NCBI GenBank assembly: GCA_964348095.1
Contig: CAYGBK010000015.1
Location: 3,840 to 67,839, forward strand
Length of the DNA stretch: 64,000 nucleotides
DNA from: an uncultured Thermodesulfobacteriota bacterium
GTDB lineage: Bacteria > Desulfobacterota > BSN033 > WVXP01
Reading direction: 5' to 3'
Numbering within the stretch: position 1 is the stretch's first letter; each line of letters starts with the position of its first letter. Below, piece by piece: positions 15,456 through 58,122 of this stretch. The notes under the pieces are model-generated. The model was not told the origin of the DNA and searched no databases. It saw only the letters and a program-made list of their open reading frames with translations. Made by a program: the position numbers and the translations under genes.

Positions 15456-16187
15456 CTTACTTCCTCCTCCTTTCTAGTTTCGCTCAATGTCTTCATTCGT
15501 CTCCGACACCGTGTGGTGCGAAGAATCGGATGACTCTGAGTGGTTTTTATCGGTCATCCGGAGTACGTCGCCTCAGCATCTAGTGACCTGAAGTATTCGT
15601 CGGCGTGACAGAAATCGATATGCCCACGGCTAACCCTTCTCGGAATTGGGAGTGAACAAAAGGGTTCTCCCTGGCACGCAATTCTGTGAGTTACTTTCTC
15701 TTGTCTTATTCTCTAGTCTCGACTGAGCTAAGAGCAATAAGGGTGCCGTAATTGAATAAAAGAGCGGTCGTTCTGAAGGGGCTGTAGTATTAACCAATTA
15801 TGAGGAAAAGTCAGGGCCCCTAAAAGGGAATCACCCCCTATATCCGAATCGTGATTTTTCAACTATGAAATTTCTGATTACAGAAACGTAATTTCCGAAC
15901 TGGTGAAATGATGACAGATTTCCATCTGAGACACGATGTTCCGATAACAAGGGGATCCATGAGATGAATTCCAGATACGCGGGAGATCCCTCACACTGTT
16001 CTCGGGAGGATAAACATCGGGGAGGCGGTCGAAGGAGGGACGGCTTCTATTCAGAATTGAGAGGGTGGACGGTCTTTCAGAGGGATCCTAGAAAAGAGGC
16101 AGCCGGCAGGTGAGGGGGTGTTCGGTTCGGGAGAAACACCTCTCCTCTGCGAAGAGAGACTCTTTACAGAACACGCCCCGCCCGACC

Positions 16188-16388
16188 TCAGAGACTCTCT
16201 ATAGGGGTCATCTTCCATCCGACCCTGTATCGCTGGCCACAACTGGGGCAGATCAGCACGATCTCGTGATAGCCATCCTTACTTTCGAAGGAGACGTGAA
16301 ATCCATTTTCGTACTGACACTTGTCACAGATGTGAAATTCTCTATTGATCTTTCTCTCGGTTACTCCATCCACAATTGAAAACCTCAA
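16188..16388 (-). CDS. small zinc-ribbon protein (CxxC...CxxC)
   Basis: HICDKCQ ... ICPSCGQ, 66 aa. TTG/GTG start, no clear RBS. Confidence 0.3.
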   Translation of the reverse strand: MRFSIVDGVTERKINREFHICDKCQYENGFHVSFESKDGYHEIVLICPSCGQRYRVGWKMTPIESL

Positions 16389-16605
16389 TCAACGTGACCT
16401 AAAAAGGGCAGGTGGACCACCTCGAAGAAGTGTACCTTAATGGAGATACCCTAATAGAGATCCAGGAGCGTTGTCAAGAACGGCGAGGTGTTTTGCCTGT
16501 TCCCTCCGCTTAGCCATCATACTGGATAGGATAGGGTATCTGTATTCGCCTTGAACGAATGTGTTATAGAATTAGTAAGAGACCCTTGGCACAAGGGGGT
16601 AAACC

Positions 16606-16791
16606 ATGAAAAAAGCCGCAACTGGGTACTGTGTTATCTGCTGTGCAGATGGCTGCAGTATGAAGAGCAATATTTCCGAGATGGTGTGTGCAGGTGAGTC
16701 TGAAAAAGCTGGCTGCACGTCATTCTGGACGAGTCTGAGAGAGATGTGTGGGTTGCCGATGAGCGGGCTCTGGACCTGCGACAGTTGGTAA
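16606..16791 (+). CDS. small cysteine-rich protein (8 Cys in 61 aa)
   Basis: RBS GGGGGT 5 nt upstream of ATG. MKKAATGYCVICCADGCSMKSNISEMVCAGESEKAGCTSFWTSLREMCGLPMSGLWTCDSW. Confidence 0.45.
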   Translation: MKKAATGYCVICCADGCSMKSNISEMVCAGESEKAGCTSFWTSLREMCGLPMSGLWTCDSW

Positions 16792-16815
16792 GATACAGAC
16801 GCAATCTGCCGACTC

Positions 16816-17100
16816 ATGATTTCAACGCGACGGGGAGTTGGTTCGGTCGTACCCGGCGAAAAACCTGTCGTAGCGGGCGAAACTGCGCGAGAGGTTTCCT
16901 TACCACGTTGGACACCGGCGTATAGAACATTGAAAGTCAGTCGAAGGCCAGCCACGTTTCAATGTAAGACGTGTTGCAAGGAATTCACGGTCGACCAAGA
17001 CGATCCTTTCCTCAGGTATTTGACCCGGGGGAGCGAGGTGCCGATGACGTGTCCCCACTGCCGGACAGACCGAATCAGCGAGTTTCGAGGCACGAAGTGA
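16816..17100 (+). CDS. FmdB-like zinc-ribbon protein (true start probably internal)
   Basis: FQCKTCCKEF ... CPHCRT paired CxxC motifs typical of the FmdB regulatory zinc-ribbon family. Confidence 0.35.
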   Translation: MISTRRGVGSVVPGEKPVVAGETAREVSLPRWTPAYRTLKVSRRPATFQCKTCCKEFTVDQDDPFLRYLTRGSEVPMTCPHCRTDRISEFRGTK

Positions 17101-17623
17101 TCTTCGGTCAATTCGGCCCTCAAATTTAGAAATCTAGTGAATACAATCCCGCCATTATCGGAAATCGGTCACCGAAGCGGAATTCAGCCTGAGCTGACGC
17201 CGCGGGCCACTCGAGGGCCTCACCGAATCTCTTAGTGTCAATCCCGACTATTCGCAAAGAACTGCCGTTCTTCTTCAAGAGATCCCCGAAAGGAAGACCG
17301 CGGAGCCGTGACAGGGGGTTGCTGAACCTCTGGGATAGGGCAAAAGCGTATCGAAAGGACGGGAGTGGCCGCCTGTGTCTCAGGTAGGATGTCATCTTTT
17401 TCATCGGATAAATGCTCGGCAGAGCATTGGGCCGTTCAACTCGACATGGATTGAAATCCAGTTTTGACGAAGGGATGATCTGAGATCCCAAATGGTGGTA
17501 TTCACCGAGGTTTGGAGTAGGGATGCCCAGTCCCGTCGGTTTTGCCTAGACTTTCTTGACGAAAAAATGAGATCTTTCCCTATTGACTTGGAACAACATG
17601 TGACCCGGACATTCGCGGAGAGG

Positions 17624-20790: not shown

Positions 20791-21345
20791 TCACAAAATC
20801 GACCTTGAAGGATTTTTTTGTCGTCCCACTCCGGGGGGAGACAGATAGCTTCGAGGTATCTGATTGAGGAGGCTCTTCCCCGTGTAGAGACCGCAGCCGA
20901 GAATATGATTTTTGTGGGCGAGAATGACGTATCCCGGTGTGATGGTGAAAGAAAGTGGTATCTCATTGTACCTGAGCAGAGTGGTGAGTTGCTCATTGTC
21001 GAGCTGAATGATACCCGTCTTCGCCTCGCCGCCGAATATCTGCAGAGCGGTTGTTGTGGGTTTAAGGCGTTGCTTCATTTTTCGGAGTATCGGAACGCCA
21101 GCCGTATGGACTTTGATATCTCTGAGCCTTTCGATATGTGATGACCCTGTGAGAAGCCAGAAGGTTCGGGGACTCTCCAGGAGTGTAAAGCCTTCAAACA
21201 CACTCAATCCAAGACCGAACCGGTTGCTGAAATATTCCAAGATTCTACTTCGGCGAGGATCCTCGACGTATTTTGGCGACAAAGAATCCCACAGAGTTGA
21301 GTTGGTGGGGGTAGATTCGCCAGCACCGTTCCATCTGTCGATCAT
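20791..21345 (-). CDS. RsmF-type C-terminal (PUA-like) domain, apparently the frameshifted 3' continuation of 21245..22171
   Basis: The ORF overlaps the upstream MTase ORF by 100 nt in another frame. LSFTITPGYVILAHKNHILGCGLYTGKSLLNQIPR resembles the RsmF PUA-like tail. A G5 run lies at 21305-21310. Confidence 0.45.
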   Translation of the reverse strand: MIDRWNGAGESTPTNSTLWDSLSPKYVEDPRRSRILEYFSNRFGLGLSVFEGFTLLESPRTFWLLTGSSHIERLRDIKVHTAGVPILRKMKQRLKPTTTALQIFGGEAKTGIIQLDNEQLTTLLRYNEIPLSFTITPGYVILAHKNHILGCGLYTGKSLLNQIPRSYLSPPGVGRQKNPSRSIL

Positions 21346-22171
21346 AATCTCTATCCTTCCATCTGAGTAACCCGGGAGAATGTGTAGCCGAGATGCCGAT
21401 AGGCATGACTTCGGCTGGTCGATTGTCGAGCAAATGCTGAATCACGCCTTCATTCTCGTCCGGGTTATAGGTGCACGTAGAATAGACAAGCACCCCGTTG
21501 TCATCGAGCAGGTCGAAGGCTCGAATTAGCAGATTGCGCTGAGTTTCGGGGAGGTAAGGCTGAGCGGTTCGGTGAGCCCTGCGGCTTGATGGCGGTAAGA
21601 ATCGGACTGTTCCCTCACCGCTACATGGGACATCGGCCAGTACCCGGTCGAAGCGCCGACGTCGGGGAAAATCCTGTCCCGCGTATGACGTAGTGACGAC
21701 ATTGGTTATCCCCAGTTTCTTAACGTTGTGCTGTAGCGCCCGGAGACGTTTTTCTTTGGTGTCGTTGGCAACGATAAGCCCCTGGTTGTTCATGAGTTGT
21801 GCCATGTGGGTGGTCTTGCAACCTGGCGCGGCACAGAGATCACAAACGAATTGGCCACATTTCGGATCGAGGGCCATAACCGGTATAGCAGAGGTTAGGG
21901 CCTGGGAGAGAAAATACCCGAGACCGGCTTCCAGTGAATCTCCTGGACGCTCAGACCCATCAGGTTCGAGGAGGTAGCCGGCCAGACAAGAGGGTTTCAC
22001 CCCGTAGCCCCGCTGCTGAAGCAATTCGGTCAGGTCGAAAGGAGTAATGCGGAGCGTGTTCACCCGCAGACACCGAATCAAGGGTGTGTTGAGGCTTTCG
22101 TAAAATGCGTCAACGTCGGGTATGAAGGATTCATATTCCCTAAAAGGTGTGCGACGCTCTGCTAGGTTCAT
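21245..22171 (-). CDS. rRNA cytosine-C5 methyltransferase, RsmB/RsmF (NOL1/NOP2/Sun) family: catalytic domain
   Basis: VCDLCAAPGCKTTHMAQL, DRVLADVPCSGEGTVR, YSTCTYNPDENE. Confidence 0.75.
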   Translation of the reverse strand: MNLAERRTPFREYESFIPDVDAFYESLNTPLIRCLRVNTLRITPFDLTELLQQRGYGVKPSCLAGYLLEPDGSERPGDSLEAGLGYFLSQALTSAIPVMALDPKCGQFVCDLCAAPGCKTTHMAQLMNNQGLIVANDTKEKRLRALQHNVKKLGITNVVTTSYAGQDFPRRRRFDRVLADVPCSGEGTVRFLPPSSRRAHRTAQPYLPETQRNLLIRAFDLLDDNGVLVYSTCTYNPDENEGVIQHLLDNRPAEVMPIGISATHSPGLLRWKDRDYDRQMERCWRIYPHQLNSVGFFVAKIRRGSSPK

Positions 22172-24365: not shown

Positions 24366-24779
24366 TCAGATGGGTTTCTTGATGTCGAGAATGCTCTCCT
24401 GTGTGGGATAAGGATAGGTAGAGTGAACACTGGCTAAGAGTTTGGCGAGTTTTATTCTTTCCTTTTTATCCATTCGGGTAAATTTGATTCCGTATTGATA
24501 GTTTATTGCCTCGCTGGTTTCGATGACGTCTTTCCAAACGATTCTGGCCTGAGCGCTCAGTGCCGTAAACTGGAGCTCAGAAGCATAGAACATCTCAAGA
24601 TCCAATTCTTCGCCCACGCCGATTCGGTCAAAAAGGTATGCGAGAAGACCTCCCTCGCTGATGTTCACAGCCATCCCCGTGGAGATCTCGGCACGGTTTT
24701 GTGAAACGTAGGAAATCGGATAGTCAACGAGAAACCGCTCAAATCTCCTCCGTTCGATGTCTGGGTGTTGGCTATCCAC
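24366..24779 (-). CDS. PilZ-domain protein (putative c-di-GMP receptor)
   Basis: RRRFER ... NISEGG matches the PilZ RxxxR / (D/N)xSxxG motifs. 137 aa. Confidence 0.5.
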   Translation of the reverse strand: MDSQHPDIERRRFERFLVDYPISYVSQNRAEISTGMAVNISEGGLLAYLFDRIGVGEELDLEMFYASELQFTALSAQARIVWKDVIETSEAINYQYGIKFTRMDKKERIKLAKLLASVHSTYPYPTQESILDIKKPI

Positions 24780-27828: not shown

Positions 27829-27992
27829 GGCAGTCGGCCTGGAAGGCGAAAAAAAGCATCGTCGATTTCACAGTCGCCTCTACCCCATTATCCCATGCCC
27901 TCGGCGTTTGTCAAAAGGAAAATCCGGGCCACAAAGGCCACGGGCAAAGAACGAAAACTTCAAGTTTGAGCCCCGGCTCCCGATATATTATA

Positions 27993-30176
27993 ATGGGAGT
28001 GATGAAGGCCACCACATCGATCAAAAAGATTCAGTCAAACTGTGTGCTTGTGTCGACCAGAAGCGTTGGAAACATTCTGTTCGGCTGCCCGCCAGAGATT
28101 ATCAAATGGTTTCTTCGCCGGAAGAGGCCGATACCTTCAATCGTCGTCCTCCCGAGGGACTTCCTCATCGACAACCGGCTAAACGTGGAACCAGAGTTTC
28201 TCATCTATGGAAATTTCTTTCTTCAAAAGAGGAGGCTTACCATCATCGGCACGGGGGGTCAACTCCGACGAATCAAGAGGATTTTCAGGGAGTCTTTCCT
28301 GGGGCCGCGAGGGGTCAGGGAGGGTAAAGGAGAAAGGGATTTCCTCAGGGCCAGGAGAGATGATGGGAAGGCTTTGAAGGTGGAGGATCTCGTCAATCTG
28401 AGTCCTTTCCGGCGCGATCGGGACGGTGTGAGAATCGATGGGGTTACGATCAAAACTACCCGTCCGGGTTGTTTTGAAATCTGGGAAGGGGGCGCCCTAC
28501 TTGGAGAGGTGGATACTACAGTTTTCAAGCTCCCGTCTCACCCACCCGATCTTTTCAAGGAAAAGCCCCTGGAGCCCCCAAGCCTTGGTGTGAGCTTTGT
28601 GGGGACCGGGAGTGGATTCAATCCCTATCGGCGGACCACGAGTTTCATTCTCTGGGTCAACGGGAAGGGTATCTTCGTTGATCCGGTCAAAGACCCGTGG
28701 GTGGAGCTCAACAGGTTAGGAATCGAGGATATGGATGTCCCCTCTGTCTTACTTACCCATTGCCATGCCGACCATGATGCGGGCATGATTCGGGCTGCCA
28801 TTCATCAAAGAAGGATACGCCTCATCACCTCCCGGGTCGTTTTCGAGAGCTTTTCGCGTAAGGCAAAGGCATTGGCCGGGTGTGACATTGAGAAATATGT
28901 CGACTTTGTCGAGATCAATCCTGGCGACACCTACGAGTTGGAGAATGCCTCGATTCGGGTTTCGTCTGCCCTCCACCCCATTCCCACGATCCGCTTTGAG
29001 GTTCTGTTCCGTGACCCGAAATCGAGAAAGCGTCTCAGAGTAGCCTATTCGGGAGACACATGTCTTGACTGCACAAAGATCGAAACTATGTATCGTCGGA
29101 GGATCATCGACAAGAAAAGGCGGGACGAGCTTCTTCACTTTGGCTTTGACGCAGACCTCTACATTCACGAGGCTGGCCAAGAGGCGATCCACACGTCGGT
29201 GCAAGAATTCGAGCGTCTTCCCGATCAAGTCATAAAGAAGCTAATCCTTGTTCATGCCGGAGATCTCCCCAAGGACTTGAAAGGCTTGCGGGTTGCGCAA
29301 GAAGGTGAGACGGTTGAACTGATTCCCCCTACCCCATCCCCTCGGGATGTGATCGAGCTGATTGCCTCGAACTCGATCTTCGAGAGCCTCAAAAGGGAAG
29401 CGGTTGTCCGCATTGCAAAGCAGGCCGTCCTCATACCGTTTAAGGTTGGGCAGAATATCGTTACCCAGGGGAAAAAGGGAGATCGATTCTACCTTATCGC
29501 TCTTGGCAGGGCAAAGGTTTTGGTCGATAACGCGATGAAAGCAGTTCTCGGGAAGGGCGATTATTTTGGCGAGATCTCTCTTCTAAGTGGAAAACCCCGA
29601 AATGCAACCGTCCAGGCCATTTCTGATGGATTGGTTCTGACTTTAGAGAAGGAGACTTTTCTCGAACTGGTCAGAGAAGAACCTTCGATCAACAAACGAC
29701 TGCAAGACGTCCTCAGGCTTAGACCCGTTGTGTCTCAGTTGACCTGTTTTAGAGGTCTCCCATCAGATCAGCTTGCCAGGCTGTCCCTTCGGTTTGAAGA
29801 ATGCAGACGTCGCAAGGGCGATCGGGTGGTTGAACAGAAACGGCGAGGGGATGCATTTTTCGTGCTCACGTCGGGAAGAGCCGTTGTGAGCGTGATGGAT
29901 GGAGAGGGCCGTGACAAGATTATTGCAAAGCTAGGCCCCGGAGACGTCTTCGGAGAAATTGCCCTTCTCAGGAACATCCCACGGACGGCAACGGTCGAGA
30001 TTACCTCCGACTCTGCGACCCTGCTCAAGTTGAGAAAAAAAGACTTCCAGACCCTAACGGCATCGATTCCCAGCCTAAGTTTCTACCTCAATCGGATAAC
30101 CGCTGAGAGATTACGGAAGCTGGCAAGGAGAAAGGCGACCGAATTCCATGCGCGCTTTTTGAGTGAATTGGCATAG
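27993..30176 (+). CDS. metallo-beta-lactamase-fold hydrolase fused to two cyclic-nucleotide-binding (CAP-family) domains; putative cNMP-regulated phosphodiesterase
   Basis: LLTHCHADHDAGM (HxHxDH) with downstream His/Asp ligands. Two CNB signatures: GDYFGEISLLSGKPRNATVQA and GDVFGEIALLRNIPRTATVEI. -10-like TATAAT immediately upstream of the ATG at 27993. The ORF-track start at 27816 overlaps priA and is unlikely. Confidence 0.7.
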   Translation: MGVMKATTSIKKIQSNCVLVSTRSVGNILFGCPPEIIKWFLRRKRPIPSIVVLPRDFLIDNRLNVEPEFLIYGNFFLQKRRLTIIGTGGQLRRIKRIFRESFLGPRGVREGKGERDFLRARRDDGKALKVEDLVNLSPFRRDRDGVRIDGVTIKTTRPGCFEIWEGGALLGEVDTTVFKLPSHPPDLFKEKPLEPPSLGVSFVGTGSGFNPYRRTTSFILWVNGKGIFVDPVKDPWVELNRLGIEDMDVPSVLLTHCHADHDAGMIRAAIHQRRIRLITSRVVFESFSRKAKALAGCDIEKYVDFVEINPGDTYELENASIRVSSALHPIPTIRFEVLFRDPKSRKRLRVAYSGDTCLDCTKIETMYRRRIIDKKRRDELLHFGFDADLYIHEAGQEAIHTSVQEFERLPDQVIKKLILVHAGDLPKDLKGLRVAQEGETVELIPPTPSPRDVIELIASNSIFESLKREAVVRIAKQAVLIPFKVGQNIVTQGKKGDRFYLIALGRAKVLVDNAMKAVLGKGDYFGEISLLSGKPRNATVQAISDGLVLTLEKETFLELVREEPSINKRLQDVLRLRPVVSQLTCFRGLPSDQLARLSLRFEECRRRKGDRVVEQKRRGDAFFVLTSGRAVVSVMDGEGRDKIIAKLGPGDVFGEIALLRNIPRTATVEITSDSATLLKLRKKDFQTLTASIPSLSFYLNRITAERLRKLARRKATEFHARFLSELA

Positions 30177-30177
30177 T

Positions 30178-30753
30178 CTATTTCACCACTTCCACCCTGA
30201 CGACTTTCCCTTCTTTGTCGTAGTGTTTGACGAGTCCCTTCCCCGTGGCTGGATCGATCGTGTGAAACCAGTCGATCCGTTTTTGGTTGGAGCTCTCCCT
30301 CAACCATTTGAGTTGGTAGGTGATGTATTTCATGTGGTAACCGTTTACCTTTCCAATGGCGAGATCGACAAGCTTGATCCAGGTGATTCTCCCGTTCTCG
30401 GTATCCTGGTACCACGCGGTCACCTGATCGATGGTCGTTTTGAAGTTTGTTTCTTCCAGTGCCCGGGAATAGTATACGGTCTCCATGAGTAGCCTAGATT
30501 CAATCTGGTTCTTGTCAATGGGTGAGGAAAAATCGAAGCGAGCGTGGGGGAGGGTCCCTTCCAGCATCTCTATGCCCCACCTCCTTCCCTCGATGTATCC
30601 GCGAACAAAGCCAGCCAAGTAGCTTCTGCCATCAGGTGTCTTGGCATTGTGATTCCACAGTGATCCGTCTGTATAGTCTGGCTCTGCAAGGGCCGGCAAA
30701 GAGATGTAGCCCAAAATAGTCAAAAGCAAAAGGACCCTTTTCATCTTCATCAT
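30178..30753 (-). CDS. secreted hypothetical protein
   Basis: RBS AGGAGGAG. Signal peptide MMKMKRVLLLLTILGYISLPALA. Convergent with the MBL-CNB gene; the stops are 1 nt apart. Confidence 0.55.
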   Translation of the reverse strand: MMKMKRVLLLLTILGYISLPALAEPDYTDGSLWNHNAKTPDGRSYLAGFVRGYIEGRRWGIEMLEGTLPHARFDFSSPIDKNQIESRLLMETVYYSRALEETNFKTTIDQVTAWYQDTENGRITWIKLVDLAIGKVNGYHMKYITYQLKWLRESSNQKRIDWFHTIDPATGKGLVKHYDKEGKVVRVEVVK

Positions 30754-30872: not shown

Positions 30873-31760
30873 CTAGGGCAACAAGGGCCTTGCCGGGTTG
30901 TGCCCGTGAAAGTTCTTCTGGGCTGCCTTTGGAGTGCTGTTAGCGTAACAGTAGATGCACCCCTGGGGACAAGTATCGTACGCTCCGATATCCGTGCTTT
31001 CCACGCACCTGCAAAGCTTTCGCTGGCCCCTGTCTTTCGAGATGGAAAGGTCCAGTCCGAAGAGCCGATTGAGGAGCTCGTCGTCGATGCACTTTCCGTG
31101 GCCGATGCCGAACGCCTCCAGGTCGAATGGTTCGGCACAGGTGACGACCTCGAACCCGTGATTCCCGCCGATCTCGCCGATGAATTTGGGGAGATCACCT
31201 ACCTGTCCCTCCTGATCATGAATATCTGTGACTATGATGTCTTTTCCTCTCTCTAAATGCTTGAGGGTCTTCATTCGTTTTGGGTAGATGTCGAGAAAAC
31301 TGATAACGCATCGGCAGGTAAACCCGCTCAGGGCCTCGGCAATCTCCCCAAAGGTGTCGTGGTGATACCTCTGATCGGTCAAACTGCTGAGAATGATCGG
31401 GTCATATCGCCAGATGATCCGACTCGCCCCTACCCTGCCGCTCAGTCTCTTGAATCTCTCTATTTTCAAAGAAATAGAGCCAGGAGACGATTCGAAGACC
31501 CTCGGGTAATGAACCAAGGTATATTGGAAGTAGTAGCGAAACCCCATCCCATCCAATTCGTCCAGATATGGAATGAGGGGATCGGCGTTTCGTGTCCAAA
31601 AGACAATCCCGTCCACATCTGGTGGCTCGAGGCTGACTCGGGTGGTCTGGCTAGGGCGAAAGGGGGTGCGAGTAAAAGCAAAACCACGTCTGATCCGGTT
31701 CATAAACCATGCGGAGTAATAGGCTGGTATGTCAGTTCTTCTACTGGCGCTAATGATCAT
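30873..31760 (-). CDS. DUF1848-family protein with C-terminal Cx3Cx2C cluster
   Basis: MIISASRRTDIPAYYSAWF... is the characteristic DUF1848 N-terminus. C-terminal CPQGCIYCYA. Confidence 0.65.
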   Translation of the reverse strand: MIISASRRTDIPAYYSAWFMNRIRRGFAFTRTPFRPSQTTRVSLEPPDVDGIVFWTRNADPLIPYLDELDGMGFRYYFQYTLVHYPRVFESSPGSISLKIERFKRLSGRVGASRIIWRYDPIILSSLTDQRYHHDTFGEIAEALSGFTCRCVISFLDIYPKRMKTLKHLERGKDIIVTDIHDQEGQVGDLPKFIGEIGGNHGFEVVTCAEPFDLEAFGIGHGKCIDDELLNRLFGLDLSISKDRGQRKLCRCVESTDIGAYDTCPQGCIYCYANSTPKAAQKNFHGHNPARPLLP

Positions 31761-31885
31761 GGCAGTTTGAACGGTGAAAGCAAAAATGGTAACTTAGGAT
31801 AGATCTTGGACCGGTTAAATTCAAGCGGAAAGGGGACCTGAAACCCGCATTTTGTGAAACCCAAAACAGGGATGGGTGAGTCTAG

Positions 31886-32794
31886 ATGAAGTTTGTTCCC
31901 CCATATGTTCAGCTTTATGAAAGTGGGGAATTGGAGGACAGGATTGAGAAGTTGAACCAGATTCTTAAGTCCTGTGAGCTCTGTCCCCGTCGATGTCGGA
32001 TCGATCGCCTGAACGACGACCTGGGCTACTGCCGTGCTGGGAGTGGCTTGAAGGTGTCCAGCGTCTTTCCTCATTTTGGTGAAGAACCTCCCCTGGTCGG
32101 TCGGCATGGTTCGGGGACGATTTTTCTGGCTCACTGCAATCTTCGCTGTGTCTTTTGCCAGAACTACGACATTAGTCATCATGGAGGTGGGGAGGGAGTA
32201 ACAACCGAGCAGATGGCTCGATATATGATCAAACTCCAGCAGATCGGTTGTCATAATATTAACTTTGTCACGCCAACGCACTATGTCGCACAGATTGTGG
32301 CCGCCTTACCCAAAGCGATTGAGCTGGGCCTTCGAGTCCCTCTCGTTTTCAACTGTGGAGGGTACGAATCCCTGGACGTCATAAAGCTGCTCGATGGGGT
32401 AATCGACATTTATATGCCCGATGTCAAATTCTTCTCTTCCCATGTGGCTGAAAGGCTCTGCAATGCGCCAGACTATCCAGAGGTCGTCCAATCGGTACTC
32501 AAGGAAATGTATCGCCAGGTGGGAGACCTGACGTTGGATTCTCACGGAATCGCCGAGCGGGGTCTTCTTATTCGACACCTCGTCATGCCCCATGACCTGG
32601 CGGGGACCGAGGGCGTTGTTCGGTTTATTGCCCAGAATCTCTCTCGGGACAGCTACGTGAACATAATGGCCCAATACAGGCCTGTTTATCGGGCAGTCGA
32701 GCTTCCGGATATCAATCGTCCCGTCACAACTGAGGAATTCCTGGGGGCTCTCGATGTAGCTCGGAAGTATGGTTTGCACAGGGGTTTTGAGTGA
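31886..32794 (+). CDS. radical SAM enzyme, PflX-like (COG1313; PFL-activase homolog of unknown substrate)
   Basis: CNLRCVFCQN (Cx3Cx2C) plus N-terminal CELCPRRCRIDR...GYC cluster. 302 aa. Confidence 0.8.
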   Translation: MKFVPPYVQLYESGELEDRIEKLNQILKSCELCPRRCRIDRLNDDLGYCRAGSGLKVSSVFPHFGEEPPLVGRHGSGTIFLAHCNLRCVFCQNYDISHHGGGEGVTTEQMARYMIKLQQIGCHNINFVTPTHYVAQIVAALPKAIELGLRVPLVFNCGGYESLDVIKLLDGVIDIYMPDVKFFSSHVAERLCNAPDYPEVVQSVLKEMYRQVGDLTLDSHGIAERGLLIRHLVMPHDLAGTEGVVRFIAQNLSRDSYVNIMAQYRPVYRAVELPDINRPVTTEEFLGALDVARKYGLHRGFE

Positions 32795-33693
32795 AACGCG
32801 ACCAGATCCTTCTCGACGTGTCTCATTTGCGTCAGCAGCTAGAGGAGCTGAGGAACCGCATCGATGCCTTGGAGAAGACCTTTCTAAATGGATCTTTTCT
32901 CACGGACCGGTTAAGAGGGCGCGGTCTTAAGATTCATCGCCACAATCCTCATGATAAGCTTCTTGTTCCCCCAGACCTTTCTCCTGAACTCACCACGCAA
33001 TTCTATGAAAAAATGAAGAAATACTCCTTTCGGCTTTTCTTAAGAGAACTCGTCAAGACTGGGACTCCCTTTTGTCCCAGTGACCTGACTCGGTACTGCT
33101 CAGACCGGGTGGCCGAGGAATATAACCGTTTCCTGAGTGCGACATCCACGGTCTGTTCTCTCAAAGGAGATACGTATCGTCTGAATCGTTCTGGGATTTC
33201 GAGTTTCGGTCCCACCCTAGAGTGGTTTGTGGCACAGATGTTCCAACGGGAATTCGGCTGCCCGGCCACCTATGGGGTCCATTTCAGGGAGACGGATGTG
33301 GGTGGAGACTACGATGTCCTTGCCCTCTGGGAGAATCGTCTCCTCTACGTGGAGGTTAAGTCTTCGCCACCGAAAAGCATTGAGGATCAGGAGATAAAGG
33401 CATTTTTCCTAAGACTCCACGACCTGATTCCTGACCTGGCCTTCTTCTTCAACGACACCCATCTGCGAATGATGGATAAGGTGATTGAGATTTTTAACCG
33501 TGAGATGAAGCGGGTTCCAGAGGGGAGACTGCTAGGAAATCCACCGGAAAGACTCAAAGATGAAATCTATCATATGGACCATTGGATCTACATCTTAAAC
33601 AGCAAGAGAGATATTGTTGGCAATTTCAGTCTCTGTTTGAGAGATCATCTTAGACAGATCAAAGGCCGACGATCGTCATCGCCCGCGAACTGA
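32791..33693 (+). CDS. coiled-coil / winged-helix / PD-(D/E)xK (Mrr-cat-like) nuclease-fold protein, translationally coupled to the radical SAM gene
   Basis: GTG start overlaps the upstream TGA (GTGA). Motif layout TLEWFVAQ (E) ... DVGGDYDVLAL (D) ... YVEVKSS (E-x-K). Confidence 0.5.
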   Translation: MKRDQILLDVSHLRQQLEELRNRIDALEKTFLNGSFLTDRLRGRGLKIHRHNPHDKLLVPPDLSPELTTQFYEKMKKYSFRLFLRELVKTGTPFCPSDLTRYCSDRVAEEYNRFLSATSTVCSLKGDTYRLNRSGISSFGPTLEWFVAQMFQREFGCPATYGVHFRETDVGGDYDVLALWENRLLYVEVKSSPPKSIEDQEIKAFFLRLHDLIPDLAFFFNDTHLRMMDKVIEIFNREMKRVPEGRLLGNPPERLKDEIYHMDHWIYILNSKRDIVGNFSLCLRDHLRQIKGRRSSSPAN

Positions 33694-36561: not shown

Positions 36562-36634
36562 GGGGCTGTAGCTCAGCTGGGAGAGCGATGCGTTCGCAAC
36601 GCATAGGTCGGGGGTTCGAATCCCCTCAGCTCCA
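36562..36634 (+). tRNA. tRNA-Ala (anticodon CGC)
   Basis: Cloverleaf folded by hand. 7-bp acceptor stem with the G3:U70 Ala identity pair. Anticodon loop TTCGCAA. T-loop TTCGAAT. CCA is not encoded. Confidence 0.9.
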
Positions 36635-37068
36635 CTCTCTGAACCTGCCTTTGCGATCTATGGGCGAGTGACGTTTAGCCGGTCGCGATCGTTTGACCGT
36701 TCGCCAGTCCACTCGAGACTTAAGCCGATTCGTCGTTTATTCGTGAAACCGGCCTCTGACTCTTCTTGGCAGAACTCTCCTGGCATACGTGGATCTTCCG
36801 TGCCATCTCCCCACCCGCGCTTTTTCTCAATGGGACGTGTCTACAGGGACTATCCTTTTTTCGGAAAGATAGGAAAGTAGAAGGAAAAAGCGGCATTTCG
36901 CCAGGAATTTATGATATCCTATTGAAGATTCCCCGTCGTGTCGGAGAGACAAGCGCACGTCTGAGTATTCTTAGCAGTACTCTCAGAAACTGGAGAGGGA
37001 TTCCAACCACGGCCTCTCCGGAGATGACTCCCTTCTATCCATAAACCCTCAGATCGTGGAGGTATCCG

Positions 37069-39504
37069 ATGGTAGATATCGCGAGAAATGAGCCCGTGAA
37101 TGTGAACATCGAAGACGAAATGAGGAGATCCTACATTGATTATGCCATGAGCGTCATTATTGGACGCGCCCTTCCGGATGTCCGTGATGGACTCAAGCCT
37201 GTTCACCGTCGTATTCTTTACGCCATGCATGAGATGCGTAATCTATGGAATCAACCTTACCGTAAGTCGGCACGAATTGTGGGCGATGTCATCGGGAAGT
37301 ATCATCCTCACGGCGACGCGGCGGTTTATGACTCCATTGTCAGAATGGCTCAGGACTTTTCTCTTCGGTATCCACTCGTCGACGGCCAGGGCAATTTCGG
37401 ATCGGTCGACGGTGATCCGCCTGCGGCGATGCGGTACACAGAGATCAGGATGGACCATCTCGCCGGTGAGTTACTGGCGGACATCGACAAGGATACGGTC
37501 GATTTTATTCCTAACTACGATGAGTCTTTGATGGAGCCTTCCGTCCTGCCAGCAGGGGTTCCAAATCTTCTCGTGAATGGGTCCTCGGGTATAGCTGTTG
37601 GAATGGCGACAAACATCCCTCCCCACAATCTCACCGAGGTGGTTGATGCGATTATTGCCACGATTCAGAATCCGGATATCGACTTGACTCAGCTAATGGA
37701 GATCATTCCCGGCCCTGATTTTCCCACAGGGGGATTCATTACAGGGAGACGGGGAATAGTAGAGGCCTATCAAACAGGCAGAGGTGTTATCCAAATCAGA
37801 GCACTTGCGACGATTGAAAAGAACAAACGGACAGATCGGGACAGTATTGTCGTAACGGAACTCCCTTTCCAGGTGAACAAGGCTAAAGTCATCGAAGATA
37901 TTGCCAGGCTTGTCAAAGACAAAGTCATTGAAGGCGTTTCTGATCTCCGGGATGAGTCTGATCGAGAGGGCATGCGAATTGTGATTGACCTCAAGCGGGG
38001 TGAGGTCCCTCAGGTCACCTTGAATCAGCTCTATAAGCACACGCAGATGCAGACTTCCTTCGGTATCATTCTGCTTTCCATTGTCGATGGTCGCCCCCGT
38101 CTATTGAATCTGAAAGAGTTGGTTTCCTGCTTTATAAATTTTCGAAGAGAGATCGTCATGCGACGATCTCATTATCAACTCAAAAAGGCTGAAGCAAGAG
38201 CCCATATACTCGAGGGCCTCAGAATTGCGTTAAAGAATATCGACGCTGTTGTGGCTCTGATTAAATCGTCACCCAACCCAGGTCATGCAAAATCGGGTCT
38301 GATGAAACGTTTCTCTCTGTCCGAACAACAGGCACAGGCTATCCTCGACATGAGACTCCAAAGACTGACCGGCCTCGAGCAGGACAAGATTTCGGAGGAA
38401 TATCAACAGCTCATCAAAGAGATCGCCCGTCTCAATGAAATCCTGACCAATGAATCTCTACTACTGAATGCTATCGTTGAAGAACTCAAGCAGAATTCAG
38501 CGCGTTACGGAGACGAGCGGCGCACACAGATCATCGATGAGGTATCGGAGATCAAGATTGAAGACTTGATTGCTGAAGAGGACATGGCCGTCACCATCTC
38601 TAATACGGGGTATATCAAACGGAACCCGATAAGCCTCTACCGAAGCCAGCATAGGGGTGGTAAGGGAAAGCTGGGAATGGGTGTCAAGGAAGCCGATTTT
38701 GTCCAACAGCTATTCATCGCCTCAACTCACGACACGCTCCTATTCTTCACGACTGCGGGTAAGGCCCATTGGCTCAAGGTGCACCAGATCCCTCAGGCGA
38801 GTCGTGCGTCTCGTGGGAAGGCTATTGTAAACCTGCTGAGCCTCGGGCCATCTGAACGTCTGACGGCTGTTCTTTCTTTCAAGGAGTTCCAGCCTGGCCA
38901 GTACATTACGTTGGCTACTCGAAAGGGTGTCGTGAAAAAGGTCGATGTGATGGCTTTCAGTCATCCCCGTGCTGGCGGGATCATCGGAATCAACCTCGAT
39001 CATGGAGACGAACTTATCTCTGCCAAGCTAACTGACGGAAAACAGGACCTCTTTCTTGCTACTCGATCGGGCAAGTCCATTCGATTCCCAGAATCAGGAA
39101 TCCGTCCCATGGGACGGAACGCCAGAGGTGTTCGAGGGATCTTGATTTCGGAAGGTGATCATGTTGTCGGGATGGAGGTTGTAGAAGACGACAAGAATAT
39201 TCTCGTTGTGACCGAAAAAGGCTACGGGAAGAGGACTTCAGCGTCGGCCTACCGCAAGCAGGGACGGGGCGGAAAGGGCCTCATCACCGTACGAGTGACA
39301 GAACGGAACGGACCGATCGTTGCCGTTCGACAGGTTTCCGAGGATGATGATCTTATGATCGTTACTAATCAGGGCAAGATTATCCGAATCCGGGTGAGCG
39401 ATATCCCAAGTGTGGGCAGAATCACACAAGGGGTGAAACTCATTGGCATTGAGGGAGATGAACGAGTCGTGGCCGCTGCTCCCTTGGCTGAAAAAGATAT
39501 CTGA
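37069..39504 (+). CDS. gyrA: DNA gyrase subunit A
   Basis: [28 protein letters not shown], active-site Tyr region, C-terminal beta-pinwheel repeats. 811 aa. Confidence 0.93.
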
Positions 39505-39809
39505 TGGCCACTTGTGCCTCTCTGGAGACCGACCCCTGTCATGTCGACAGAATAGGGGATTATTCGGGTCGGTCTTGGATGGCCTTCAAAGAGAAATCGC
39601 ATATAGTATCTCATTACGGGAGACTGTGGAGACCGGTTATGTGTGATCACGAATCGAAGCGGGTTCAGAAGAAGGTTAAGGTGAGTGAAGAAGAGATCCC
39701 TTGCGCCTACGCTGCCACTCAGACCAAAATCGTTTTCCAAGTGACCTATGAGTGTGATGATTGCAAAGAGACCTGGACAGAAGAAGCAGAGGAGTGGAGA
39801 GGGATGTGA
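39504..39809 (+). CDS. hypothetical small Cys-containing protein, start overlaps the gyrA stop (TGATG)
   Basis: ATG embedded in the gyrA stop codon. CxH...CxxC-like spacing (PCAYAAT...YECDDCKETW). Confidence 0.3.
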   Translation: MATCASLETDPCHVDRIGDYSGRSWMAFKEKSHIVSHYGRLWRPVMCDHESKRVQKKVKVSEEEIPCAYAATQTKIVFQVTYECDDCKETWTEEAEEWRGM

Positions 39810-39952
39810 TTCGTGATGTGATGGCTATTCTCTGGATTGATCTGTAAGAACTCTGAACGGATCAAGAGAGAAAAGGCCATAGGCCGTCAGATGAAGATCA
39901 AGAGGCCTATGGCCGAGTATGGACAAGATTTATCGTGAGTGAGGGGAGGCCC

Positions 39953-41404
39953 TTACTCATAGAAACTTCGTAATTTGCACTTCCTCTTCGGGTGTTTCAG
40001 CTTCCTTAAGGCCTTTGCCTCAATCTGTCTAATTCGTTCTCTCGTGATTCCAAATTGACGCCCCAATTCCTCGAGGGTGTAATCCCTTTTTTCCTCGATT
40101 CCAAATCGCATTCTCAGTATCTTGGCCTCTCTCGGGTTCAGAGAGGAGAGAACCCTTTTGATCTCCTTGTTGAGATTGGTCTGAACCGTCATCTCAAGGG
40201 GCGACACGGCGTCCTCATCGGCAATGAAGTCACCGAAACGGGTCTCACTATCTCCTACAGGCGTCTCCAGGGAGGTCGGTTGCTCCATCCGAATGTGGAA
40301 AATCTTGTTGACTTTCTCCAGGGGAAGGTTGGCTGCCTCTGCCACCTCGGGTGGAGTGGGTTTTCTTCCAAGTTGATTGAAGAGGCTGTAGCAGATCTTT
40401 CTCATCTTCATCTCATTCTCAAGCAGGTGAACGGGTAGTCTGATCATTCTGGCCTGATCGGCTATGGCTCTAGTTATTCCCTGCATGATCCACCAGGAAG
40501 CATAGGTGCTGAACTTGTATCCCTTGCGGTAATCAAATCGATCTACAGCCTTCATGAGACCAATGTTGCCCTCCTGAATCAGATCAGGAAGAGAGAGTCC
40601 TCGGTTAACGTATTTCTTGGCAATATTGATTACCAACCGCAAGTTGGCTTTAACGAAATCATCTTTTGCCTGCTTGACCTCTTGTCGGGCCCTTCCAACC
40701 GATGAAATGATGCCCTCCAGCTTTTCCCGACCATCTCCAGACCAGTAGACGTCGTCAGCCTTTGCCCGCGGATTTGCTCGTTCTCGGAGAATAACCTCGA
40801 TGTTTTCTAGAACCTGCTTTTTCACGGCCATCTTGTTGATCAGAGTTTCGATGACCATTTGATTCTCTGCCATTTTGGCCGCGAGGGAAGGACCTTCCCG
40901 CCGGGTTCCTATCTTTTGTCGATACTTCTCATTTTGCTTACTCAGTCTGAGGATTTCTCTCACGGTTTTAATAAACTGTTTCTTAAGGGTGGACTCCTCC
41001 TGTGGCGGGTAATGGGAGTTGGTTGGAACGTCCAGAATGTCTCTCACCTCGATCTCTCCAGCATGGATCTCTTTCGCGCTGAGGGCGATCCATTCCATGC
41101 CCACAGGATTCTGAACAAGGAGGGCCTTTACCCGGTTTTCGCCCTCTTCAATCCTCTTGGCGAGTCCCTGTTCCTCCTCAGGGCTAAGGAGAGGGACGCA
41201 TCCGATCTCTTTCAGATAAACTCCTATTGAGGAATAGGGAAAATCAGAAATCTGGGTGGCCGGCGCACTGTCCGATTCTTCGTTTTCCGAGTACTTCCCA
41301 CCGTAGGAATCCTCGGACTCTTCGCGGTCGAACTGAAATTCCTCGTCCTCAATTTCCCCCAACTCGCTGCCCTTGTTGACAAATTGATTGTTGTAAACGT
41401 CCAT
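39953..41404 (-). CDS. rpoD: RNA polymerase primary sigma factor (sigma-70)
   Basis: Acidic N-terminus. Region 2 [33 protein letters not shown]. Region 4 ILRMRFGI...[28 protein letters not shown]. Confidence 0.92.
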
Positions 41405-54602: not shown

Positions 54603-55313
54603 TCAGCTTCCGTCAAATATGAAACCAGACTGCCCAGAGAGGGTTGAAGAATGAGGAAGAGAGCCTTTGACCCCCTTGAAAGTCTTCCGGTGGTATTCGC
54701 AATACCCGTGTCGTCTTATGGCGTCGAGGTGTTCCTGAGTGCCATAGCCCTTGTGTTTTGCGAAATTATATTGGGGATACTTCTCGTGGTAGGAGGTCAT
54801 GATTCGATCTCGAGTGACTTTGGCAACGATTGATGCGGCACCTATGGAAACACAGAGGTTGTCGCCTTTCACGATGGTGCGCTGTGGCATTGGCAGGGGG
54901 ATGGGGAGGGACCCATCGACGAGCAGCATTTCTGGCTTCCTATTCAGTAGGCGAACTGCTTTCGCCATCGCCTTCTGGGTGGCCCTTCCAATATTGATCT
55001 GGTCTATCTCTTCTGCCTCGATCACGCCGGTACCGATGGAGACAGCCACCTTCAAGATCTTTTCATACAGGGATTCTCTCATTTCGGGCTGAAGTTTCTT
55101 CGAATCCCAAAACCCTTCTTGAAATGCCGAAAAAGGGAGTATGACGGCAGCCGCAACGACGGGACCGGCCAGTGGCCCCCGACCTGCTTCGTCCACACCC
55201 GCGATCAACCGACATCCCTGGCCCGAAAACCGCCTCTCGAAAAAATCCAGGGCTTGGGATGGCGCAGATCCAATAAGGTCTTTTTGCTGGCGCCCTGACA
55301 TGATAGAGACCAC
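54603..55313 (-). CDS. rnhB: ribonuclease HII
   Basis: LIAGVDEAGRGPLAGPVVAAAVIL. Confidence 0.85.
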   Translation of the reverse strand: MVSIMSGRQQKDLIGSAPSQALDFFERRFSGQGCRLIAGVDEAGRGPLAGPVVAAAVILPFSAFQEGFWDSKKLQPEMRESLYEKILKVAVSIGTGVIEAEEIDQINIGRATQKAMAKAVRLLNRKPEMLLVDGSLPIPLPMPQRTIVKGDNLCVSIGAASIVAKVTRDRIMTSYHEKYPQYNFAKHKGYGTQEHLDAIRRHGYCEYHRKTFKGVKGSLPHSSTLSGQSGFIFDGS

Positions 55314-55314
55314 C

Positions 55315-55656
55315 TCACTGCTCTTCCTTTATTCGAGCAGCTTTCCCTCGGCGTTTTCTCAGGTAGTAGAGTTTCGCCCGCCGCACCTTGCCTCTGCCTA
55401 TCAGTTCAACCCGGTCGATCCGTGGAGAATAGAGGGGAAATATTCGCTCGACGCCGACCCCATAAGACACTTTTCTGACAGTGAAGGTTGCGCGGGGACC
55501 TCCCCGCCGCTTACTGATGACAACACCTTCAAAGACTTGTGTCCTCTCCTTGTCGCCTTCGATGATCTTAACGTAAACCCGAACCGTGTCACCCGCTTTG
55601 AAATCGGGCAAATCCGTTCGGATGTGTTCCCTCTCAATCAATTCGATGGAATCCAT
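55315..55656 (-). CDS. rplS: 50S ribosomal protein L19
   Basis: [29 protein letters not shown]... Confidence 0.92.
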
Positions 55657-55672
55657 TCTCGGCTCCTCCTCT

Positions 55673-57737: not shown

Positions 57738-57794
57738 CGTCAGCTTCCCCCCTTTACTGCCCGGCCCCCAGGCATCTAAGACATACCAAACCCC

Positions 57795-58061: not shown

Positions 58062-58122
58062 CATCTTTCGATTCACCTCCACGTCATGAATTAAAGTTCC
58101 AAATTCACAAGCAGCGTTCTTT

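What the first reader, a model, noticed from the sequence alone, without database searches (positions are those of the whole stretch)
27993..30176. Metallo-beta-lactamase-fold hydrolase fused to two cyclic-nucleotide-binding domains
One polypeptide carries an MBL HxHxDH centre (LLTHCHADHDAGM, also compatible with the class II cAMP-phosphodiesterase signature HxHLDHxxG). Two C-terminal CAP-type cNMP-binding domains follow, each with the FGE...R.A.V phosphate-binding cassette. The architecture suggests a phosphodiesterase or other hydrolase that its own substrate or product nucleotide allosterically gates. A self-contained cNMP turnover switch of this kind is little characterised in bacteria. 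The 230-aa N-terminal region (IIGTGGQLRRIKRIF...) has no motif I can place. Its gene abuts a convergent secreted-protein gene with only 1 nt between the stops.
Basis: partly seen in the sequence, partly recalled or inferred. Interest (0 to 1): 0.6.

Follow-up and report, generated by a model that had tools for sequence, protein, structure and literature searches.

The report
Cyclic-nucleotide-gated MBL phosphodiesterase, Dictyostelium GbpA/B type
This gene encodes a bacterial relative of the slime-mould enzymes that destroy cAMP/cGMP and are switched on by the same nucleotide; it belongs to a known family, but its unexplained front part turns out to be a dead second copy of the catalytic domain.

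Summary
Window 27993-30176 (+) is one ORF encoding a metallo-beta-lactamase (MBL) domain with a complete metal-ligand set, followed by two canonical cyclic-nucleotide-binding (CNB) domains. The true start is probably ATG 28002.

It is not a PF02112/class IIa enzyme.

This two-MBL module defines a family of at least 492 clusters at 50% identity. The family includes a CNB-less form of about 465 aa and eukaryotic members.

No conserved operon partner was found, and the window contains no cyclase. No bacterial member appears to have been characterised biochemically.

Verdict: a new member of a known kind, of moderate interest.

The parts
27966..27994 (+). Sigma-70-type promoter-like site (TTGAGC-17-TATAAT). 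The -10 box ends 7 nt before ATG 28002, so the mRNA probably has little or no leader.
   Evidence: Consensus scan, 10/12 matches. The GTTTG of the -35 region and the TAT.ATA of the -10 are invariant columns in the alignment with three relatives whose proteins are 57-74% identical; the full -10 hexamer TATAAT is intact in the window, L001 and L005 and degenerate (GATACA) in L002. Function is inferred, not shown.
28002..30176 (+). Probable true coding sequence (724 aa plus stop) of the cNMP-gated MBL phosphodiesterase.
   Evidence: ORF list. Homologues P0001 (93% identity) and P0002 (81% full-length identity; 86% over the N-terminal 445 residues) are 724 aa and start MKA/MKS. Upstream alignment.
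27993..28580 (+). N-terminal degenerate (pseudo) MBL-fold domain, residues 1-196. It has no HxHxDH motif. Its own conserved residues are G31, P34, E35, K38 (GCPPExxK), P48, E68, F69, Y72, F76, G104, P105 and E114.
28581..29327 (+). Catalytic MBL domain, residues 197-445 (Apyc1/YhfI/RNase Z-like branch).
28758..28775 (+). HxHxDH metal-binding motif (HCHADH, residues 256-261). The other ligands are D230 (28680-28682), H328 (28974-28976), D355 (29055-29057), H400 in IHT (29187-29195) and H421 (29253-29255). HEAG lies at 29166-29177.
   Evidence: All are invariant in 42 family sequences. Coordinates checked by translation.
29355..29717 (+). Cyclic-nucleotide-binding domain A (residues ~455-575). 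Its phosphate-binding cassette is FGEISLLSGKPRNAT at 29565-29609 (G526, E527, R536, A538).
   Evidence: Pfam cNMP_binding. PKA/PKG regulatory-domain matches. The cassette is conserved in 36 of 39 family members that have the domain.
29736..30131 (+). Cyclic-nucleotide-binding domain B (residues ~582-713). Its cassette is FGEIALLRNIPRTAT at 29949-29993 (G654, E655, R664, A666).
   Evidence: Pfam cNMP_binding best stretch 607-689. The cassette is intact here and in the close clade, but the Arg is kept in only 17 of 37 family members.

Best explanation
The gene encodes a cytoplasmic, stand-alone 3',5'-cyclic-nucleotide phosphodiesterase of the GbpA/GbpB (PdeD/PdeE, 'class IIb') family. It has four domains in one chain.
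1. A catalytically dead MBL-fold domain.
2. An active binuclear-metal MBL domain that hydrolyses the cyclic phosphodiester.
3. and 4. A PKA-R-like tandem of cyclic-nucleotide-binding domains.

Proposed mechanism:
- The dead N-terminal domain takes the place of the second subunit of the homodimeric short MBL phosphodiesterases and nucleases (Apyc1, YhfI, short RNase Z). This gives an intramolecular pseudo-dimer, as in long-form RNase Z.
- When cAMP or cGMP rises, it occupies the CNB cassette(s). The resulting movement of the CNB helices raises catalytic activity, so the nucleotide accelerates its own removal. That behaviour would clip nucleotide pulses.

Shown here: the domain composition, the complete ligand and cassette sets, homology to the dictyostelid enzyme and to Apyc1/YhfI, and the MBL fold and Trz1-like packing of the N-terminal domain in the predicted model.

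Inferred: the hydrolytic activity, activation rather than inhibition by the nucleotide, which nucleotide is involved, and any contribution of the dead domain to the active site.
For: - Architecture: MBL plus 2x cNMP_binding. The full-length AlphaFold model is confident (pLDDT 91, pTM 0.91).
- Metal ligands D230, H256, H258, D260, H261, H328, D355, H400 and H421 are invariant in 42 sequences. Both cassettes are canonical.
- Direct BLASTP against Cavenderia fasciculata XP_004358696.1, named 'cAMP/cGMP-stimulated cAMP/cGMP phosphodiesterase': 30% identity over 569 columns, E = 8e-68. It covers the N-terminal domain, the MBL domain and the start of CNB-A. A second colinear segment covers the CNBs (E = 2e-12). 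That protein has the same Pfam architecture.
- GbpA/GbpB are MBL phosphodiesterases activated by nucleotide binding to two downstream CNB domains (PMC11988041).
- Closest solved relatives of the catalytic domain are Apyc1 and the YhfI-like BA1088. Hobbs et al. 2022 showed that Apyc1 and YhfI cleave cyclic mononucleotides (PMC9117128).
- In Trz1 the N-terminal MBL domain has likewise lost its catalytic residues, and the protein mimics the short-form dimer (PMC5449637).
Against: - No enzymatic or binding data exist for this protein, or for any bacterial member found in the searched literature.
- The window contains no nucleotide cyclase among the 40 ORFs scanned (ORFs of at least 180 aa plus two shorter neighbours; six overlapping or alternative-frame ORFs and the other ORFs under 180 aa were not scanned). 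The rest of the genome is unknown.
- Pfam's Apyc1 model scores far below its cut-off (18.7 against 50 bits).
- The pseudo-dimer geometry rests on a predicted model whose coordinates I could not inspect.
- Sequence evidence for the internal duplication is weak (hhalign probability 6.5%).
Confidence: 0.72

Rival explanations
1. A cNMP-regulated hydrolase acting on a different phosphodiester, such as RNA 3' ends as with RNase Z, 2',3'-cyclic nucleotides as with PhnP, or another phosphodiester. In this reading cAMP/cGMP is only the allosteric signal, not the substrate.
For: - NCBIfam's best MBL hits are RNase Z models (E = 3e-8).
- The tandem MBL layout is that of long-form RNase Z.
- The HEAG...IHT motifs resemble the HEAT/HST motifs of tRNase Z (from my own knowledge of that family).
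Against: - The best sequence and structure matches are cNMP phosphodiesterases.
- The dictyostelid orthologues hydrolyse cAMP/cGMP.
- The model's secondary structure shows no long protruding tRNA-binding arm in the N-terminal domain. This was judged by eye from the element list.
Confidence: 0.12
2. The protein is a phosphodiesterase, but the CNB tandem inhibits it or merely localises it on ligand binding, or it binds a ligand other than the substrate. Examples would be cGMP controlling cAMP breakdown, or a non-nucleotide ligand as in some CRP/FNR proteins. In that case it is not a self-activated switch.
For: - CNB domains can transmit either sign of regulation.
- CNB-B has lost its cassette Arg in about half of the family, so the two sites are not equivalent.
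- The residue after the cassette Arg differs between the sites (Asn in A, Thr in B). From my own knowledge, the PKG-like Thr is compatible with different nucleotide preferences.
Against: - Both cassettes here keep every residue that contacts the cyclic phosphate.
- The characterised homologues are activated by their own substrate.
Confidence: 0.1
3. A host-side regulator of cyclic-pyrimidine (cCMP/cUMP, Pycsar-type) immune signalling. An Apyc1-like nuclease would be coupled to PycTIR-like sensor domains, so that stray immune signal is cleared.
For: - The phage gene at the Apyc1 locus aligns end to end.
- Hobbs et al. raise the possibility that host Apyc1-like enzymes regulate Pycsar or other cNMP signalling.
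Against: - No Pycsar cyclase or any other defence gene lies nearby. The neighbours are priA, rsmF, a PilZ protein, gyrA and rpoD.
- The gene sits in a conserved housekeeping synteny block.
- There is no conserved neighbour across 80 loci.
- The CNBs match PKA/PKG equally well or better.
- Close bacterial MBL phosphodiesterases such as YhfI prefer cAMP/cGMP.
Confidence: 0.05

Closest known systems
Dictyostelium GbpA (PdeD/PDE5) and GbpB (PdeE/PDE6): class IIb cNMP-stimulated MBL phosphodiesterases
   Same: - Same order of all four domains: pseudo-MBL, MBL, CNB-A, CNB-B.
- 30% identity, E = 8e-68, colinear with the Cavenderia fasciculata orthologue.
- Same HxHxDH core (LTHCH[AS]DHD).
- NCBI already gives bacterial homologues this family's name.
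   Different: - Bacterial and compact (724 aa against 1105 aa for the Cavenderia orthologue; other eukaryotic hits run from about 800 to over 1400 aa), with none of the low-complexity inserts visible.
- No activity data exist.
- Nucleotide preference is unknown.
- D. discoideum sequences themselves could not be retrieved, so a dictyostelid orthologue stands in for them.
Apyc1 (phage anti-Pycsar) and B. subtilis YhfI / B. anthracis BA1088: short homodimeric MBL cNMP phosphodiesterases
   Same: - Same metal ligand set.
- Cyclic mononucleotides are their substrates.
   Different: - They are single-domain homodimers of about 250 aa without sensor domains.
- Here a dead MBL copy appears to replace the partner subunit, and two CNB domains are appended.
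- The Pfam PF23023 score is below its cut-off.
Long-form RNase Z (yeast Trz1, human ELAC2)
   Same: - Tandem MBL domains in one chain, with the N-terminal copy stripped of catalytic residues and the C-terminal copy active.
- 371 residues of the model superpose on Trz1.
- Trz1 mimics the short-form dimer.
   Different: - Different substrate class (pre-tRNA).
- Trz1's N-terminal domain keeps a flexible tRNA-binding arm, which is not seen here.
- The linkers are unrelated.
- RNase Z family models score far below their cut-offs.
- This is most likely an independent duplication (inference).
Class IIa phosphodiesterases (PF02112: Vibrio CpdP, yeast PDE1, Dictyostelium PdsA)
   Different: - No PF02112 hit at E <= 1, and the family signature is not matched.
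- They have no CNB domains and no pseudo-MBL domain.
PKA/PKG regulatory subunits (tandem CNB-A/CNB-B)
   Same: The C-terminal 270 residues match RI-alpha and PKG tandem CNBs (Foldseek E = 2.6e-24, 26-28% identity; phmmer E = 4e-38). The same phosphate-binding cassette is present.
   Different: The output is an in-cis hydrolase, not a kinase catalytic subunit. There is no inhibitor or pseudosubstrate segment.

Membership tests
GbpA/GbpB (PdeD/PdeE) class IIb cNMP-stimulated MBL phosphodiesterases | Domain order: MBL catalytic domain followed by two cyclic-nucleotide-binding domains | tested here: met
   Pfam Lactamase_B_2 at 227-358 plus two cNMP_binding stretches. The dictyostelid member P0192 has the same Pfam content.
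GbpA/GbpB (PdeD/PdeE) class IIb cNMP-stimulated MBL phosphodiesterases | Significant colinear sequence similarity to a dictyostelid family member over the catalytic and regulatory parts | tested here: met
   BLASTP against C. fasciculata XP_004358696.1: E = 8e-68, 30% identity, residues 24-511 aligned to 258-817, plus 522-716 aligned to 902-1105 (E = 2e-12). D. discoideum GbpA/B themselves were not available.
GbpA/GbpB (PdeD/PdeE) class IIb cNMP-stimulated MBL phosphodiesterases | Complete binuclear metal ligand set (Asp, HxHxDH, His, Asp, His, His) | tested here: met
   D230, H256, H258, D260, H261, H328, D355, H400 and H421 are invariant in 42 sequences.
GbpA/GbpB (PdeD/PdeE) class IIb cNMP-stimulated MBL phosphodiesterases | CNB phosphate-binding cassette with the conserved Gly-Glu and Arg-x-Ala | tested here: met
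   G526, E527, R536, A538 in CNB-A and G654, E655, R664, A666 in CNB-B.
GbpA/GbpB (PdeD/PdeE) class IIb cNMP-stimulated MBL phosphodiesterases | Hydrolysis of cAMP and/or cGMP, stimulated by the nucleotide | not testable with these tools
   This needs enzyme assays. It is known for the Dictyostelium enzymes only (PMC11988041).
Class IIa phosphodiesterase (Pfam PF02112 PDEase_II) | Match to PF02112 and to the family signature around HxHLDH | tested here: not met
   PF02112 is absent from the hmmscan list at E <= 1. The signature regex, recalled from memory, does not match HCHADHDAGMIRAAI.
Apyc1 family (Pfam PF23023) | Score above Pfam's gathering threshold (50 bits) | tested here: not met
   [not shown]
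Ribonuclease Z (NCBIfam TIGR02651 / NF000801) | Score above the equivalog cut-off | tested here: not met
   32.9 bits against a cut-off of 292.95, and 32.7 against 252.
Long-form (tandem-MBL) RNase Z-like architecture | An N-terminal MBL-fold domain lacking catalytic residues, fused to an active C-terminal MBL domain in a dimer-mimicking arrangement | tested here: met
   [not shown]
Long-form (tandem-MBL) RNase Z-like architecture | A flexible arm (exosite) for tRNA in the N-terminal domain | tested here: inconclusive
   The secondary-structure list of the model shows no long protruding insertion, but the coordinates could not be inspected.
PKA-R-like tandem CNB module | Two consecutive CNB beta-barrels with connecting helices that superpose on R-subunit structures | tested here: met
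   Foldseek: 1ne4 E = 2.6e-24, 262 columns, 26% identity. phmmer: PKG E = 4e-38.

The most novel reading that the evidence does not exclude
The whole GbpA/GbpB-type phosphodiesterase family, including this bacterial protein, may be a 'long-form' MBL enzyme. A dead N-terminal MBL copy would replace the second subunit of the Apyc1/YhfI/short RNase Z homodimer. Through its own near-invariant cluster (GCPPExxK, EFPxY, FGP, E114), it would complete or gate the active site that the tandem CNB domains control.

On this reading the two-MBL module is ancestral and bacterial, with at least 492 clusters at 50% identity and a form of about 465 aa without CNBs. It would have been passed on to amoebozoans, algae and other protists. 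I found no description of this organisation in the literature I could search.
Probability: 0.45. Interest if true: 0.5.

Novelty: new member of a known kind. Interest (0 to 1): 0.35.

Why it matters
Substrate-activated phosphodiesterases shape second-messenger pulses, and in Dictyostelium this family sets the cGMP and cAMP dynamics of chemotaxis.

The same four-domain enzyme turns out to be widespread in bacteria. At least 380 stretches from the species-representative genome collection encode a relative. These include cultured Leptospira and Labilithrix, and the family extends to Thermodesulfobacteriota such as the source of this window. That gives the family tractable prokaryotic models and suggests that cAMP/cGMP turnover in these phyla is actively shaped.

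Recognising the N-terminal region as a dead MBL copy explains a conserved 200-residue block that has no Pfam family. It also gives a concrete structural hypothesis (an intramolecular pseudo-dimer) for how the family is built and regulated.

The finding does not reveal a new kind of system.

Tried and rejected
- Foldseek against afdb50, to reach the Dictyostelium models, was not available. I reached a dictyostelid orthologue instead through the exhaustive HMMER search and the cluster look-up.
- The original Dictyostelium papers (PMC133599, PMC133600) are not held. I relied on the 2025 review.
- Class IIa/PF02112 membership was rejected.
- An operon or functional partner was rejected. Synteny (priA, the target, a 189-191 aa secreted protein, DUF1848, a radical SAM gene) holds only among relatives at 57-67% identity. 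It is absent at about 30% identity. Clustering the ORFs of 80 loci gave no neighbour family in more than 13 loci. The larger clusters were antisense shadow ORFs of the target itself.
- No cyclase or second CNB protein was found among the 40 window ORFs scanned (ORFs of at least 180 aa plus two shorter neighbours; six overlapping or alternative-frame ORFs were left out).
- A defence-system reading is not supported. PADLOC hits arise only from the CNB domains.
- Sequence proof of the internal MBL duplication is weak. hhalign gives a colinear alignment, but with probability 6.5% and P = 0.0056. The claim therefore rests on fold comparison.
- Five literature searches for a characterised bacterial member found none. 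That library lacks most subscription journals, so absence is not proven.
- No intrinsic terminator lies between the convergent genes.
Full report
**1. The observation**

Window 27993-30176 lies in a single + strand ORF. Residues are numbered from 27993 throughout.

- Pfam finds two cNMP_binding domains (E = 3.2e-37) and Lactamase_B_2 (E = 1.3e-6, residues 227-358). There are weaker Lactamase_B, Lactamase_B_3 and Apyc1 (PF23023) hits at residues 197-270.
- The quoted motif LLTHCHADHDAGM is residues 253-265 (HCHADH = nt 28758-28775).
- The two phosphate-binding cassettes are FGEISLLSGKPRNAT (525-539) and FGEIALLRNIPRTAT (653-667).
- The + gene stops at 30174-30176. The convergent 191-aa ORF (30178-30753, -) stops at 30178-30180, so one nucleotide separates the stops.

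Two details need correction.

The start is most likely ATG 28002. The 93% and 81% identical homologues are 724 aa and begin MKA/MKS. ATG 27993 sits inside a TATAAT box (27989-27994) belonging to a TTGAGC-17-TATAAT promoter-like site. The GTTTG of the -35 and the TAT.ATA of the -10 are invariant columns in an alignment with three relatives whose proteins are only 57-74% identical; the full TATAAT hexamer is intact in two of them and degenerate (GATACA) in L002. The start codon follows the -10 box by 4-9 nt in all four sequences, which suggests a leaderless or nearly leaderless mRNA. That last point is an inference.

The unplaced N-terminal region is about 196 residues, not 230.

**2.

I aligned 42 family members spanning 93% to 23% identity. 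The following are invariant: D230, H256, H258, D260, H261, H328, D355, H400 and H421. H392 and E393 (HEAG) are nearly invariant. This is the full ligand set of the RNase Z/Apyc1 branch of the MBL superfamily.

Both CNB domains of the window protein keep the Gly-Glu and Arg-x-Ala of the cassette. Across the family, the CNB-A cassette is conserved in 36 of 39 sequences. The CNB-B Arg is kept in only 17 of 37, and it is intact in the window's clade. Neither refutation criterion is met.

**3. What family it is**

A search of 5.8 billion proteins returned about 80 full-length relatives with the same architecture. NCBI names several of them 'cAMP/cGMP-dependent 3',5'-cyclic-AMP/GMP phosphodiesterase'.

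An exhaustive HMMER search used a profile of the N-terminal region plus the MBL domain (alignment A4). It found 492 cluster representatives at E <= 1e-30 and 1062 at E <= 1e-10. Many hits are 800-1400 aa. The cluster look-up identified several of them as eukaryotic:

- P0192 is Cavenderia fasciculata XP_004358696.1, 'cAMP/cGMP-stimulated cAMP/cGMP phosphodiesterase'. This is the dictyostelid GbpB/PdeE type.
- Others come from Chlorokybus, Aplanochytrium and Rhodelphis.

Direct BLASTP of the window protein against P0192 gives 30% identity over 569 columns (E = 8e-68). The alignment runs from residue 24 through the N-terminal region and the MBL domain into CNB-A. A second colinear segment covers the CNBs (E = 2e-12). 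P0192 has the same Pfam content.

The 2025 review of Dictyostelium phosphodiesterases describes GbpA and GbpB as class IIb enzymes whose MBL catalytic domain is activated by nucleotide binding to two downstream CNB domains. GbpA prefers cGMP and GbpB prefers cAMP (PMC11988041). The window protein is thus a bacterial member of that family. It is not a class IIa/PF02112 enzyme, because there is no PF02112 hit at E <= 1 and no signature match.

**4. The catalytic domain**

A profile of residues 1-445 searched against all PDB sequences hits only through the MBL part. The best hits are:

| PDB entry | Protein | E-value |
|---|---|---|
| 7T28 | 'Putative metal-dependent hydrolase' as deposited; I take it to be a Paenibacillus Apyc1 of Hobbs et al. 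(my attribution) | 7.9e-13 |
| 7U2S, 7U2R | Apyc1 | 7.1e-12, 4.3e-9 |
| 1ZKP | B. anthracis BA1088 | 4.4e-11 |
| 6KNS | 'Putative metal-dependent hydrolase' as deposited; I take it to be B. subtilis YhfI (my attribution) | 9.1e-7 |

Hobbs et al. showed that Apyc1 and YhfI are Zn-dependent homodimeric cyclic-mononucleotide phosphodiesterases. YhfI prefers cAMP/cGMP, and residues from the opposing protomer contribute to catalysis (PMC9117128). This supports cNMP hydrolysis as the chemistry here but does not fix the substrate.

**5. The N-terminal region**

This region has no Pfam, NCBIfam or PDB sequence match. It is nevertheless conserved throughout the family, with near-invariant G31, P34, E35, K38, P48, E68, F69, Y72, F76, G104, P105 and E114.

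A profile-profile comparison with the catalytic domain is colinear over 142 columns. It places 'VVLPRDF' where the catalytic domain has 'LTHCHADHD', but it is statistically weak (P = 0.0056, probability 6.5%).

The region is therefore a degenerate MBL domain that has lost all metal ligands.

I infer that the dead domain replaces the partner subunit of the Apyc1/YhfI-type dimer. Its conserved acidic, basic and aromatic cluster may play the part of the trans-acting residues. This last step is hypothesis. I could not inspect the coordinates.

**6. Family breadth and context**

The same two-MBL module occurs without CNB domains in a large group of proteins of about 465 aa (P0084, P0107-P0155). It also occurs with extra domains in some eukaryotes and in a 2403-aa Omnitrophota protein.

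The nearest, at 74% identity, is an uncultured Thermodesulfobacteriota MAG. Others are Leptospira biflexa and L. yanagawae, Brevinematales, Riflebacteria, Sericytochromatia, Planctomycetota, Vulcanimicrobiota and Labilithrix luteola.

The gene is stand-alone. It is divergent from priA and convergent with a small secreted protein, in a housekeeping region with rsmF, gyrA, rpoD, ffh, trmD, rsmG and parB. This order is kept in relatives at 57-67% identity. It is lost at about 30% identity, and no neighbour family recurs in more than 13 of 80 loci. No cyclase is encoded among the window ORFs scanned.

**7. Mechanism and rivals**

The best-supported reading is a cytoplasmic cNMP phosphodiesterase that is switched on by the nucleotide it degrades. 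It is built as pseudo-MBL + MBL + CNB-A + CNB-B (confidence about 0.7).

The rivals are:

- A cNMP-regulated hydrolase of another phosphodiester. RNase Z and PhnP are close structural neighbours, but their family models score far below cut-off.
- A phosphodiesterase whose CNBs act with the opposite sign or bind a different ligand.
- A regulator of cyclic-pyrimidine immune signals. Apyc1 and PycTIR similarities point this way, but there is no defence context.

The nucleotide preference cannot be called. The residue after the cassette Arg is Asn in CNB-A and Thr in CNB-B, and from my own knowledge that is not diagnostic.

**8. Novelty**

The architecture and its logic have been established in Dictyostelium since 2002, and bacterial homologues already carry the name. 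I found no biochemical study of a bacterial member, though the library is incomplete.

What this analysis adds:

- Direct evidence that the bacterial and dictyostelid proteins share all four domains.
- Identification of the conserved N-terminal block as a dead MBL copy in an RNase-ZL-like arrangement.
- The size and spread of the two-MBL family.

This is a new member of a known kind. Interest is moderate (0.35).

Noticed in passing
P0084, P0107-P0155; no copy in the window: A large sister family of proteins of about 465 aa consists only of the pseudo-MBL plus the active MBL module, without CNB domains. It has a very conserved GNILFGCPPEILKRIL motif and HVHEDH in place of HCHADH. It occurs in SAR324 and many metagenomes, and its function is unknown.
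   Followed up: partly
P0189 (Rhodelphis marinus, 1084 aa) and P0171 (Omnitrophota, 2403 aa): The two-MBL plus CNB module is fused to other domains. In Rhodelphis it is fused to a class I phosphodiesterase domain (PF00233), giving two unrelated PDE domains in one chain. In an Omnitrophota protein it is fused to AlaDH/PNT and glucosamine-6-P-isomerase-like domains.
   Followed up: no
window 27966-28004: The -35 core (GTTTG) and the -10 core (TAT.ATA) are invariant across the window and three relatives; the full TATAAT hexamer is intact in two of them and degenerate in L002. The start codon lies only 4-9 nt after the -10 box, which suggests a leaderless mRNA.
   Followed up: partly
window 30178-30753 (-): The convergent 191-aa protein has an N-terminal signal-peptide-like segment and no Pfam family. 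It keeps its position, tail to tail with the phosphodiesterase gene, in relatives at 57-67% identity (189 aa in L001 and L002). No terminator-like site lies between the two genes.
   Followed up: partly
window 30873-33693: A conserved trio lies downstream: a DUF1848 protein (30873-31760, -), a radical SAM protein (31886-32794, +), and an overlapping 300-aa protein without any family (32791-33693, +; 4-nt overlap suggests translational coupling). The same order is found in L001 and L002.
   Followed up: no
window 24366-24779 (-): A stand-alone PilZ-domain protein (a c-di-GMP receptor type) lies next to priA. Relatives also carry an HDOD/HD protein and a His-kinase/Hpt/receiver cluster a few kb upstream (L001, L002). 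The neighbourhood is therefore rich in signalling genes, though none is linked to cAMP/cGMP.
   Followed up: no
window 12798-14538 (-): A thermolysin-like M4 peptidase ORF (12798-14141) is preceded by a separate 117-aa ORF (14185-14538) that looks like its missing N-terminal or propeptide part. This could be a frameshift, an internal stop or a pseudogene.
   Followed up: no
window 15500-17450: About 1.9 kb has no convincing ORF (only overlapping ORFs of 127 aa or less), no Rfam hit and no repeats.
   Followed up: partly
window 20791-22171 (-): The RsmB/F-type methyltransferase (21245-22171) and its PUA-domain part (20791-21345) are called as two ORFs that overlap by 101 nt. In L002 they are two adjacent genes. 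The split appears to be natural in this clade.
   Followed up: no
window 37069-41404 and 54603-63342: The window carries gyrA, rpoD, rnhB, trmD, rimM, ffh, bamD, rsmG and parB. This looks like a core chromosomal region, and rsmG/parB suggest it may be near the replication origin. There is a single tRNA-Ala(CGC) at 36562-36635.
   Followed up: no
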